DNA of 64,000 nt, from NCBI GenBank assembly GCA_032718475.1, contig JAUCBJ010002218.1, forward strand, positions 1-64,000. Reading direction: 5' to 3'. This document shows, one piece after another, positions 3,401 through 63,367 of the stretch (within the stretch, counting starts at the first letter, position 1; the number at the start of each line of letters is the position of its first letter). Source of the DNA: Nemertoderma westbladi. Lineage: Eukaryota; Animalia; Xenacoelomorpha. Both the position numbers and the translations under genes were made by a program. Below the pieces are notes generated by a model. That model had not been told where the DNA came from. It did no database searches and was given only the letters and a program-made list of their open reading frames with translations.

Positions 3401-6400
3401 CTTTCTTATTATATGCGAGTTCAAAATCCTGGGCAGCTTATTCATTGCTGCCAATGACTCCTCTTAAGCATTCGAATGTCTTCACCCTCCAGATCCATGA
3501 TCCCGAGCATCGCAATGACTTTTTTTGAATCTTTATATTAAATTAGTAATTAGCTTTCTAACAGCGATGACAAAATATGTTTATTTTGATAAATTTCAGG
3601 GTGACACTAGTCAGTGTTATGTTGCCAATGTGGTTCTTCTGCATTATTCCGTATAAAGTTATTGGCACGTTGTGACAATCCAGTTATGTTCAGGCAGGTT
3701 ATCAATTGTATTCCGGTATTAATTATTATATTATAGTTACAACAACAAGACTTACACCATCGGCGACATCAACTTTAATGAAAATCCTGCTTCGACCTTC
3801 CCTAAACGCGATGGTTCGAGTATCAGCTATGTGGAATACTATAAGCAGCACTACAACCTCACGATCCAACCACTCAACCAGCCTCTTCTCGTTGTCAAAC
3901 CCTCTAAACAGGACATCAAAGCCGGCCGTGTCGAGAACATCCAACTGATCCCGTCGTTGTGTCACATGTCGGGGCTGTCCGAGACAATGAAGGCCGATTT
4001 CCAGATCCGTAAAGATTTGGACGCTCACACCAAGCTGAATCCCACGAAGAGGAATGAGAAACTCTCGCAGTTCCTCAACATCCTACACAGGTACATTTAT
4101 TAGCTGATTAATTTGGTAATAAATACGGTTAAACTTATTTATTTTGGGTAATATTATTACAAATCGGCCCACGGGAAATTTACCTAATTCCGTAGCTAAT
4201 ATGGTTTATACCATTATTTCATCTTACTATCTTACTTGTGCGTAAAGTAGCACTTTACAGTGTGATGATACGAGTGGCTTTGTTACACGAACGAACGTAG
4301 CCCTTACCAAAAATAATAAAAAGCTGTGTTAAAGTAACATTGCGACATGATTAATTGCCGAGATGGGATTTACGTCAAGGTTCCCCATCCCTCATCCCAT
4401 TCGGGAAAATCGACTCAAATAATAATAAAATCAATAAACCATATTATGGGAAAAATTCTCAATAAATTACGTGATATACTAATAATATCAGTTATGAGTT
4501 ACTTTATCTAATAATATACATAAAGTTTCGCCAGGGAAAAAAAATAGATAGACCACTTTTTGCTATTATTTATTGACGATATGAAACTATAATATTGTTA
4601 TAATTTACTTTACAGTAACAAAGAGGTGAATGAAGATCTCGTCAAATGGGATCTTAAAGTGGATCAGGGTCTATACCGAATCCCTGCGCGGGTTCTACCT
4701 CAGGAGGTTGTCGCGTCCTGGCCCGTCGGCGATGTCAAGAAGCACACTGTCTGGGACTTCGACGCCAAGGCCGCTGATTGGGGTTCCGGCTTCCGGAATA
4801 GACGCATGATCCAATCGATAAGGCTCTCCTCCTGGGTCATCGTTCACTCGGATCGCAACAAAAATGAAGCGGAGATGTTTATCAGTAACGCTCGCCAGGT
4901 CAGTCATAACGTTTCAGTAACGGTCGCCGGGTCAGTCATAACGGTTCAGTAACGGTCGTCGGGTCAGTCATACGGTTCAGTAACGGTCGCCGGGTCAGTC
5001 ATAACGTTTCAGTAACGGTCGCCGGGTCAGTCATAACGGTTCAGTAACGGTCGTCGGGTCAGTCATAACGGTTCAGTAACGGTCGCCGGGTCAGTAATAA
5101 CGGTTCAGTAACGGTTGTCGGGTCAGTCATAACGGTTCAGTAACTGTCGCCGGGTCAGTCATAACGGTTCAGTAACGGTCGCCGGGTCAGTCATAACGGT
5201 TCAGTAACGGTCGTCGGGTCAGTCATAACGGTTCAGTAACGGTCGCCGGGTCAGTCATAACGGTTCAGTAACGGTCGCCGGGTCAGTCATAACGGTTCAG
5301 TAACGGTCGTCGGGTCAGTCATACGGTTCAGTAACGGTCGCCGGGTCAGTCATAACGGTTCAGTAATGGTCACCGGGTCAGTCATAACGGTTCAGTAACG
5401 GTCGTCGGGTCAGTCATAACGGTTCAGTAACGGTCGCCGGGTCAGTCATAACTGTTCAGTAACGGTCGTCGGGTCAGTCATAACGGTTCAGTAACGGTCG
5501 CCGGGTCAGTAATAACGGTTCAGTAACGGTTGTCGGGTCAGTCATAACGGTTCAGTAACGCTCGTCGGGTCAGTCATAACGGTTCAGTAACGGTCGTCGG
5601 GTCAGTCATAACGGTTCAATAACGGTCGCCGGGTCAGTCATAACGGTTCAGTAACGGTCGTCGTGTCAGTCATAACGGTTCAGTAATGGTCGCCGGGTCA
5701 GTCATAACGCACAGTGGGGCTTAACTTGGTTTTTGGCAAAGGTTGGACCCCGTTCATGTAAACAAGTTTTTTGAGCTTAGTTGGTCCCCTAATGTAAAAA
5801 TTGACAAAAATTAAAATATTTCATGGGTGGCTTTTTAAATTAATACTATTTAAGTAATTATTTAATACTAATCATATTACTAAATTTCAACAATTACTCC
5901 CCCAAACATATTGACAGGTTTATTTTGCTCCATTGGTGTCACTTTGTACACAAAATAAAAAAATTTAAAATTTCATGGGTGGCTTTTAATATAATGCTAT
6001 TTAATTATTTATTTAATACTAAATATTATTACCTTTAACAAAGGATGTTACCCCATTCATGAAAGCAAGTTTTTTTTCTCTAATCATGTCTCGATTAATA
6101 AAATATAAAAAATTAGAAAGTTTCATGGGTGGCTTTTAATATAAATGCTATTTAATTATTTATTTAATACTAAATATTATTACTTTTAACAAAGGATGAT
6201 TGGTACTCTTTCCCATACATGAAAACAAGTTTTTTGGCTTCAAGTATGCCTTGATGAATAAAATGCAAAAAATTAGAAAGTTTCATGGGTGGCTTTTAAT
6301 ATTACAACTATTTTATTATTCAATTAATACTAAATATTATTACTTATATATATATATACAGTACCGGTATATAAGCTCATTGTTTATACAATGAAGGACT

Positions 6401-62649: not shown

Positions 62650-63367
62650 GTGAGTGACCAGCTGACCATAATGTGAGTGACCAGCTGACCATAATGTGAG
62701 TGACCAGCTGACCATAATGTGAGTGACCAGCTGACCATAATGTGAGTGACCAGCTGACCATAATGTGAGTGACCAGCTGACCATAAGGTGAGTGACCAGC
62801 TGACCATAACTTGAGTGATCAGCTGTCCATAAGGTGAGTGACCAGCTGACCATAAGGTGAGTGACCAGCTGACCATAAGGTGAGTGACCAGCTGACCATA
62901 ACTTGAGTGATCAGCTGACCATAAGGTGAGTGATCAGCTGACCATAACTTGAGTGATCAGCTGACCATAAGTTGAGTGACCAGCTGACCATAACTTGAGT
63001 GATCAGCTGACCATAAGGTGAGTGATCAGCTGACCATAAGGTGAGTGACCAGCTGACCATAACTTGAGTGATCAGCTGACCATAAGGTGAGTGACCAGCT
63101 GTCCATAAGGTGAGTGACCAGCTGACCATAATGTGAGTGACCATCTGTACATAAGGTGAGTGACCAGCTGACCATAAGGTGAGTGATCAGCTGACCATAA
63201 GGTGAGTGACCAGCTGACCATAAGGTGAGTGACCAGCTGACCATAACTTGAGTGATCAGCTGACCATAAGGTGAGTGACCAGCTGCCCATAAGGTGAGTG
63301 ACCAGCTGACCATAAGGTGAGTGACCAGCTGTCCATAACTTGAGTGATCAGCTGACCATAAGGTGAG
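62646..63367. repeat. 23-24-bp minisatellite built on a 5' splice site
   Basis: Unit taag|gtgagtgaccagctgacca, about 30 copies; first unit is the real ACADSB donor at 62650. Confidence 0.95.

What the first reader, a model, noticed from the sequence alone, without database searches (positions are those of the whole stretch)
4882..63367. Recurrent 5'-splice-site amplification: three unrelated minisatellites each nucleated at an exon/intron junction
Seen: piwi 4882-8806 (32 bp), piwi 25746-27300 (28-32 bp) and ACADSB 62646-63367 (23-24 bp) share no sequence, yet in each the first unit is the functional junction (last 4-24 exon nt plus the first intron nt). Each intron therefore opens with 30-55 copies of its own donor. 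That is 3 of about 15 donors in this window, which looks too frequent for random minisatellite birth. Established: tandem duplication of AG|GT-containing sequence is a known model for intron gain, and U1 binding suppresses premature polyadenylation. Inference: this lineage has either a mutational process targeted to 5' splice sites (R-loop or Pol II pausing, splicing-coupled repair) or selected U1-decoy/telescripting arrays.
Basis: partly seen in the sequence, partly recalled or inferred. Interest (0 to 1): 0.85.

Follow-up and report, generated by a model that had tools for sequence, protein, structure and literature searches.

The report
Splice-donor repeats in piwi and ACADSB
In an animal's piwi and ACADSB genes, three exon ends with their splice signal are each copied 30 to 55 times into the next intron, yet the one assembled piwi transcript is cut at the original signal, so these are likely tolerated members of a repeat type already known from human and lancelet genes, and why they crowd at exon edges is still open.

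Summary
Three unrelated arrays start across real GT donors (4899, 25770, 62650) and carry 17, 24 and 4 exon bases: 3 of 15 donors, 0 of 16 acceptors. One RNA-like contig uses the first donor at both piwi arrays. DNA contigs of a second sample hold one end of each piwi array. This is a known class: human F7, IFI6, CBS, LMNB2, PDGF and ABCA7 VNTRs and lancelet "mirages". The junction excess looks real (P about 1e-4 to 1e-2, post hoc), but drops to P 0.06-0.21 if the introns were 70-80 nt long when the arrays arose; the two piwi residues are that short. The U1-decoy and telescripting reading is not supported. The U1 window is not extra conserved (P 0.38-0.46), 54 of 54 copies in array 1 have a changed donor, and there are no poly(A) hexamers in the arrays or the piwi intron residues. 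The scan already noted 14 similar loci in this genome, donor and acceptor alike (unchecked AI notes), which argues against a 5'-only process. No genome was held, so the genome-wide test was not run.

The parts
168..28157 (+). piwi-like gene, 12 coding exons in the window (168-462, 900-1114, 1512-1726, 2520-2714, 3737-4090, 4616-4898, 8873-9030, 15405-15564, 25476-25769, 27363-27553, 27773-27920, 28041-28157); its start lies upstream
   Evidence: Open frame; homologues. RNA-like run X4 shows joints for introns 1, 2, 3, 5, 10 and 11, and contig arithmetic plus loose ends support introns 6-9. Intron 4 was not among the joints displayed.
4882..8806 (+). Array 1: 32-nt unit = last 17 nt of exon 6 + first 15 nt of intron 6, about 55 units; true donor at 4899
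   Evidence: All 54 downstream copies have lost the A at donor position -2. 3-nt direct repeat at the two ends.
5710..7873 (.). Non-coding foldback (MITE-like) insertion that splits array 1: 628-nt terminal inverted repeats (96%), CAC...GTG ends, 4-nt target duplication
   Evidence: It holds all 16 poly(A) hexamers of intron 6.
8807..8872 (+). 66-nt residue of intron 6, with the acceptor
   Evidence: An RNA contig leaves exon 6 at the first donor and continues with exon 7.
25746..27300 (+). Array 2: ancestral 32-nt unit = last 24 nt of exon 9 + first 8 nt of intron 9; proximal copies are a 28-nt deletion form and two decayed copies lie at the far end; true donor at 25770
   Evidence: 43 of 51 downstream 9-mers are identical to the true donor and all 51 keep GT. 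In-frame stop 6 nt into the intron. 7-nt direct repeat at the ends.
27301..27362 (+). 62-nt residue of intron 9, with the acceptor
   Evidence: The 30 letters of the RNA contig before the acceptor are the unique end of exon 9.
61328..62649 (+). ACADSB-like gene, 4 exons in the window (61328-61460, 61795-62139, 62244-62414, 62524-62649); it continues beyond the window
62646..63367 (+). Array 3: 23-nt unit = last 4 exon nt + first 19 intron nt, 31 units plus a partial one; predicted donor at 62650
   Evidence: 16 of 30 copies are identical over 9 nt, 6 are changed at -1 only (including the 5 nearest copies), and 8 have lost GT. 9-nt direct repeat at the ends. In-frame stop 24 nt into the intron.

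Best explanation
Each array is a head-to-tail run of its own exon-intron junction that likely began as one microhomology-guided duplication of 23-32 bases across the donor, likely grew by ordinary minisatellite turnover, and is likely tolerated because the assembled piwi RNA uses the first donor while use of any later copy would hit a premature stop. Shown: the junction anatomy; short direct repeats (3, 7 and 9 nt) at the array ends; block duplication of variant units (a 144-nt exact block on both sides of the insertion); first-donor use at both piwi introns in one contig; and no in-frame pseudo-donor before the first stop in any array. Inferred: slippage or unequal exchange as the cause; nonsense-mediated decay of minor products; and a junction excess that comes mainly from a selection filter. 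Duplications inside exons are purged, and in introns that were then about 70-80 nt long a large share of the tolerated 25-30 nt duplications must straddle an edge. GC-richer units may also expand more easily. The copies themselves are likely functionless.
For: Anatomy and variants. End repeats and residues of 66 and 62 nt. The RNA-like contig of 2,093 letters leaves exon 6 at the first donor into exon 7, enters exon 10 from the unique end of exon 9, and places base 25769 at record position 1239, exactly as predicted if no repeat unit is kept. No extra conservation of the U1 window. Units continue with intron rather than next-exon sequence, so they are not spliced-RNA-templated. The short-intron null gives P 0.06-0.21. 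Unit GC is 0.45-0.53 against 0.36 in array-free introns. The same behaviour is reported for F7 IVS7 (PMC1557585) and lancelet mirages (PMC3087553; PMC3902484).
Against: The array-free introns here are 104-1,022 nt, not 70-80 nt. Against their interior the excess remains (P 9e-4 to 9e-3), so geometry alone may not suffice. A first, anchor-based test suggested fewer variant alleles in the U1 window (pooled P 0.036); it vanished in the anchor-free test, but power is low. RNA evidence is one contig from one run, contigs drop rare isoforms, and array 3 has no RNA check. Array 3's GC comes from intron bases. A 3-nt end repeat is within chance.
Confidence: 0.55

Rival explanations
1. Same tolerated, functionless arrays, but a mutational process concentrates their birth at exon edges on both sides. 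Candidates are recombination or gene-conversion tracts that stall where conserved exon meets polymorphic intron, or nicks at nucleosome edges repaired into tandem duplications.
For: Excess over intron interiors. 14 distinct unchecked notes on this genome describe donor (6), acceptor (6) and multi-site (2) arrays. Ebner et al. see both boundaries duplicated in lancelet and call the mechanism unclear. The other samples differ from the window by SNPs and indels, with most listed indels in introns.
Against: No genome-wide denominator. The notes are selected, unchecked AI readings. The short-intron null can absorb the excess. Nothing in the window points to a particular process.
Confidence: 0.28
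2. A process specific to 5' splice sites (U1-linked R-loops, Pol II pausing, splicing-coupled repair) seeds the arrays.
For: 3 of 15 donors against 0 of 16 acceptors in this window.
Against: The asymmetry is not significant (P 0.10). Acceptor arrays are published for lancelet and noted in this genome (unchecked).
Confidence: 0.06
3. The copies are kept by selection as U1 landing pads that suppress premature polyadenylation or help define the upstream exon.
For: All 51 copies in array 2 and all aligned copies in array 1 keep GT. Anchored test P 0.036.
Against: Anchor-free test P 0.38-0.46. 54 of 54 copies in array 1 are changed at -2 and 14 of 30 in array 3 at -1 or +1. No poly(A) hexamers in the arrays or the piwi residues. 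The longest, hexamer-rich intron has no donor array, and the arrays themselves create most of the intron length.
Confidence: 0.05
4. The arrays are intermediates of intron gain or recursive-splicing ladders.
For: Array 3 units contain AG|GT. Mirage-based intron gain is a published hypothesis, and repeat-derived new introns are reported in human paralogues (PMC2812944).
Against: Intron parts do not match the next exon, and 0 of 398 AGs in the arrays have 9 or more pyrimidines in 12 nt, against 7 of 14 real acceptors. The mature RNA has no extra sequence.
Confidence: 0.03
5. The arrays are assembly artefacts or a chance coincidence in a repeat-rich genome.
For: No contig spanning a whole array was examined. 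The window holds 9 arrays and was picked post hoc.
Against: DNA-like contigs of a second sample run into the second unit of array 1 (to 4942) and join the distal units of array 2 to unique sequence. Units carry ordered variants and a transposon insertion with a target duplication.
Confidence: 0.03

Closest known systems
Human donor-spanning minisatellites: F7 IVS7 (37 bp, 5-9 copies), IFI6/6-16 (25 pseudo-sites), CBS IVS13 (15-20), LMNB2, PDGF (PMC1557585: abstract, Discussion and 7 passages read)
   Same: The first unit spans the exon-intron boundary and the donor is reiterated in the intron. The upstream donor is the only one used in F7, LMNB2 and PDGF; in 6-16 and CBS two nearby copies are also used. 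The F7 unit has 4 exon nt, as array 3 does.
   Different: More copies here (30-55), two arrays in one gene and three in 64 kb; an invertebrate host; minor use of nearby copies could not be tested here.
Lancelet 'mirage' minisatellites: Adh3, globins BflGb6 and BflGb9, troponin C, PGBD5 (PMC3087553: 6 passages; PMC3902484: 1 passage; the original Adh3 paper PMC117041 is not held)
   Same: Tandem repeats spanning exon-intron boundaries in an invertebrate, several per gene, units of 10-72 bp at Adh3, normal mRNA, origin called unclear.
   Different: Globin mirages have 3-6 copies of about 155 bp. Only donor-side arrays occur in this window. Somatic instability was not tested here.
ABCA7 intron 18 VNTR (PMC5954066: 5 passages)
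   Same: A 25-bp unit that includes the splice donor; use of the second copy gives a frameshift and a premature stop.
   Different: Length-dependent mis-splicing is shown there; here the single contig shows none and no quantitative data exist.

Membership tests
Junction-spanning minisatellite (mirage / F7-type) | Tandem array whose first unit spans a real exon-intron boundary | tested here: met
   The donors at 4899 and 25770 are confirmed by an RNA-like contig; 62650 rests on frame, consensus and homology only.
Junction-spanning minisatellite (mirage / F7-type) | Splice signal reiterated in many, not necessarily all, units | tested here: met
   GT is kept in 54 of 54, 51 of 51 and 22 of 30 downstream copies.
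Junction-spanning minisatellite (mirage / F7-type) | Mature mRNA made with the authentic site | tested here: met
   Both piwi arrays, one contig of one run. Array 3 was not tested.
Junction-spanning minisatellite (mirage / F7-type) | Length polymorphism or somatic instability | not testable with these tools
   Only short contigs are available, and their depth is no copy number.
Selected U1-decoy / telescripting array | U1-pairing bases more conserved than the rest of the unit | tested here: not met
   Anchor-free P 0.38-0.46; the anchored test gave 0.036; low power.
Selected U1-decoy / telescripting array | Cryptic poly(A) signals to be suppressed in the intron | tested here: not met
   0 hexamers in the arrays and the two piwi residues. 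Intron 6's 16 hexamers all lie in the later insertion, and 2 ATTAAA lie in the 633 nt after array 3.
Selected U1-decoy / telescripting array | U1 binding on the copies | not testable with these tools
   No CLIP data.
Intron gain by tandem duplication (Rogers model, cited in PMC3087553) | Intron 5' end duplicates the start of the downstream exon | tested here: not met
   7 of 14 and 3 of 8 matches, two of each being the GT. The next exon of array 3 lies outside the window.
Recursive-splicing ladder | Pyrimidine tract plus AG|GT in the units | tested here: not met
   0 of 398 AGs have 9 or more pyrimidines in 12 nt.

The most novel reading that the evidence does not exclude
This animal lineage has a genome-wide mutational hot zone at exon edges, on both donor and acceptor sides, that seeds tandem duplications more than tenfold above background. 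Junction satellites would then be a main source of intron growth and a natural library of hundreds of competing splice sites.
Probability: 0.3. Interest if true: 0.7.

Novelty: new member of a known kind. Interest (0 to 1): 0.38.

Why it matters
The element type is known, and the scan has noted larger examples in this genome, so this window adds density (3 of 15 donors; two in one piwi gene) rather than a new kind. It still bears on two open points. One is how a spliceosome picks the first of about 50 identical consensus donors: array 2 has 43 identical copies and a perfect 9-of-9 site 70 nt from the acceptor, yet the assembled RNA uses the first. The other is why such repeats arise at exon edges, which the lancelet globin paper calls unclear. 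A genome with many such arrays would make both testable by counting.

Tried and rejected
No whole genome is held, so the genome-wide enrichment test was not run. No RNA holder was listed by record; run X4 behaves as RNA (GT..AG joints, no intron cover) and X1-X3 as DNA. The 36-nt array at 9096-15014 was tested as a decayed donor or acceptor array and rejected (104 of 500 and 220 of 500 shuffles score as high). The anchored conservation test (pooled P 0.036) was set aside because cutting units at GT protects those columns from gaps; one search replaced it. In one search one of the 55 'copies' of array 1 is a chance match inside the insertion and one true copy was missed, so counts for array 1 come. 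In one search the last 2 decayed copies of array 2 were dropped, and 2 long spacings of array 1. Depth over the first array units differed between runs (972, 129 and 118 against about 9-21 for unique DNA), but the tool states this is no copy number, so it is not used. The lineage was not resolved: the best piwi hits are starfish, nemertean and lancelet at 63-67%; 'acoel' comes only from an earlier AI note. Eight paper searches showed no listing of a genome-wide count of junction-spanning minisatellites in an invertebrate; the library lacks most subscription papers, the acoel genome papers were seen as listings only, and no supplements were read. PMC12783039 (passages) was not relevant. Earlier-finding look-ups by words and near this place gave nothing.

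Full report
Observation. Tandem Repeats Finder reports the three arrays at 4882-5709 plus 7874-8806 (period 32), 25758-27223 (period 28) and 62646-63367 (period 23). Reading the sequence and building gene models gave 12 piwi exons (875 codons) and 4 ACADSB exons (258 codons) with no internal stop (one search had the exon 2 acceptor 8 nt off). Single-exon searches name them piwi-like 1 (63-67% to starfish, nemertean and lancelet) and short/branched-chain acyl-CoA dehydrogenase (about 50%). The host is an animal, likely an invertebrate; the lineage was not resolved. Of 15 donors, 3 have 12-14 close copies of their 16-nt junction within 400 nt; of 16 acceptors, none do. The first units contain 17, 24 and 4 exon bases. 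The units are unrelated to one another and absent from the rest of the window.

Array 1 is interrupted by a 2,164-nt element with 628-nt inverted ends and a 4-nt target duplication, and a 144-nt block of units is exact on both sides of it. The copies are not all true donors. Position -2 is changed in 54 of 54 copies of array 1. Array 2 keeps the 9-nt donor in 43 of 51 copies and ends in a perfect-consensus site at 27293. Array 3 keeps it in 16 of 30, has lost GT in 8, and its five nearest copies are changed at -1. In array 2 the copies most like the exon lie in the middle-to-distal part, and the proximal ones share a 4-nt deletion. Each array is bounded by a short direct repeat of 3, 7 or 9 nt, as expected for a slippage origin (recalled, not from a call; 3 nt is within chance). 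Beyond the arrays only 66 and 62 nt of the two piwi introns remain.

Are the arrays real and how are they spliced? Eight runs were listed and none is on record as RNA; four were laid. X4 behaves as RNA, with GT..AG joints at piwi introns 1, 2, 3, 5, 10 and 11. One X4 contig of 2,093 letters leaves exon 6 at the first donor and continues with exon 7. It enters exon 10 from the unique last 30 bases of exon 9, and its record position 1239 equals the value computed for splicing with no repeat unit kept. So the first donor is used at both piwi arrays in this one assembly; rare isoforms would not show. Any later donor would give a frameshift or a stop: no array has an in-frame pseudo-donor before the first in-frame stop, which lies 51, 6 and 24 nt into the introns. 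DNA-like contigs of a second sample (X2 and X3) reach the second unit of array 1 and link the distal units of array 2 to unique DNA, so these ends are not peculiar to the window's assembly. Full lengths and array 3 were not checked.

Is it more than chance? With arrays collapsed to one unit, 0.10 of 9 arrays are expected to span a donor (P 9e-5 for 3), or 0.20 of 6 intronic arrays (P 7e-4). Against the interior of array-free introns P is 9e-4 to 9e-3. If the arrays arose in introns of 70-80 nt, as the piwi residues suggest, P for 3 of the 4 arrays not attributed to transposons is 0.06-0.21, and 0.004-0.006 at 250 nt. All values ignore that the window was chosen for this feature. Donor against acceptor is not significant (P 0.10). 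No genome was held. Two look-ups showed 16 rows (8 of 70 and 8 of 67 fits), which are 14 distinct notes on other pieces of this genome: 6 donor, 6 acceptor and 2 multi-site loci. These are unchecked AI notes. They suggest recurrence and symmetry but give no denominator, and they supplied the term 'mirage' and two paper ids.

An alignment anchored at GT gave fewer variant alleles in the U1 window (pooled P 0.036). An anchor-free alignment to the first unit, ranked against all circular shifts, did not (P 0.38-0.46 for alleles, 0.17-0.32 for divergence); power is low. The arrays and piwi residues have no AATAAA or ATTAAA, the 16 in intron 6 come from the later insertion, and the 9.9-kb intron 8 with 20 has no donor array. 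Telescripting therefore has little to protect. The units continue with intron sequence, not with the next exon, and 0 of 398 AGs have a strong pyrimidine tract against 7 of 14 real acceptors. That argues against intron gain, spliced-RNA templating and recursive ladders.

Mechanism. Most likely (0.55): a microhomology-guided duplication across the donor, growth by unequal exchange and conversion, and tolerance through first-donor choice and decay of minor products, with the junction excess coming from a selection filter on formerly short introns. The anatomy and first-donor use are shown; the rest is inferred. Next (0.28): the same, but with a real mutational bias at both exon edges. A 5'-specific process (0.06), selected decoys (0.05), intron gain or ladders (0.03) and artefact or chance (0.03) are less likely.

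Comparison. Borensztajn et al. (PMC1557585; abstract, Discussion and passages) describe minisatellites whose first monomer spans an exon-intron boundary in F7, 6-16, CBS, LMNB2 and PDGF, and show upstream-first selection for F7. ABCA7 has a similar VNTR (PMC5954066, passages). Ebner et al. (PMC3087553, passages) and the PGBD5 paper (PMC3902484, one passage) describe lancelet 'mirages' at both boundaries with normal mRNA, and Ebner et al. call the origin unclear. The three arrays meet the defining features that could be tested. Eight searches showed no listing of a genome-wide count in an invertebrate; the library is incomplete and no supplements were read.

Verdict. Real, a new member of a known kind, probably functionless. 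The lasting question is why this genome forms such arrays so often at exon edges. Interest 0.38.

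Noticed in passing
window 62160-62260: ACADSB intron 2 (104 nt) holds 2-3 decayed 35-nt repeats whose core resembles the start of exon 3 (11 of 12 nt; 9 of 1000 shuffles score as high). It may be a small, old acceptor-side duplication that the 16-nt screen did not flag.
   Followed up: partly
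window 9096-15014: A 36-nt minisatellite (about 157 copies, with 42-nt variants) fills most of piwi intron 7, starting 65 nt after the donor; it is not junction-derived.
   Followed up: yes
window 5710-7873: Foldback element with 628-nt inverted ends that contain 150-160-nt sub-repeats, CAC...GTG termini and a 4-nt target duplication. These features resemble non-autonomous Chapaev/CMC elements (recalled, not tested).
   Followed up: partly
window 34495-42084: Tandem 5S rRNA array, 8 copies on the minus strand, spacing about 950-1,160 nt.
   Followed up: no
window 46892-59441: Two 1.1-kb direct repeats (46892-48027 and 58323-59441, 96%) flank a region with a gag-like ORF (DUF1759, 50717-53350) and further ORFs without Pfam hits; it looks like a decayed BEL/Pao-type retroelement region.
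   Followed up: partly
window 17960-19088 and 20949-21591: Two related 53-nt arrays in opposite orientation inside piwi intron 8, possibly the ends of one large inverted-repeat element.
   Followed up: no
window 30496-33879: 18-nt arrays in opposite orientations (30496-30688, 30776-32014) beside a broken LINE-like reverse transcriptase on the minus strand (RVT_1); a related fragment lies at 23483-23782.
   Followed up: partly
window 22950-23290: A tRNA-like match at 23002-23073 appears to lie in an inverted duplication, possibly SINE-derived.
   Followed up: no
window 27435: All four laid runs read A where the window has C; the change is synonymous, so it is an assembly error or a private allele.
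   Followed up: no
window 28158-28700: The RNA-like run covers the piwi 3' UTR to the end of the stretch laid.
   Followed up: no
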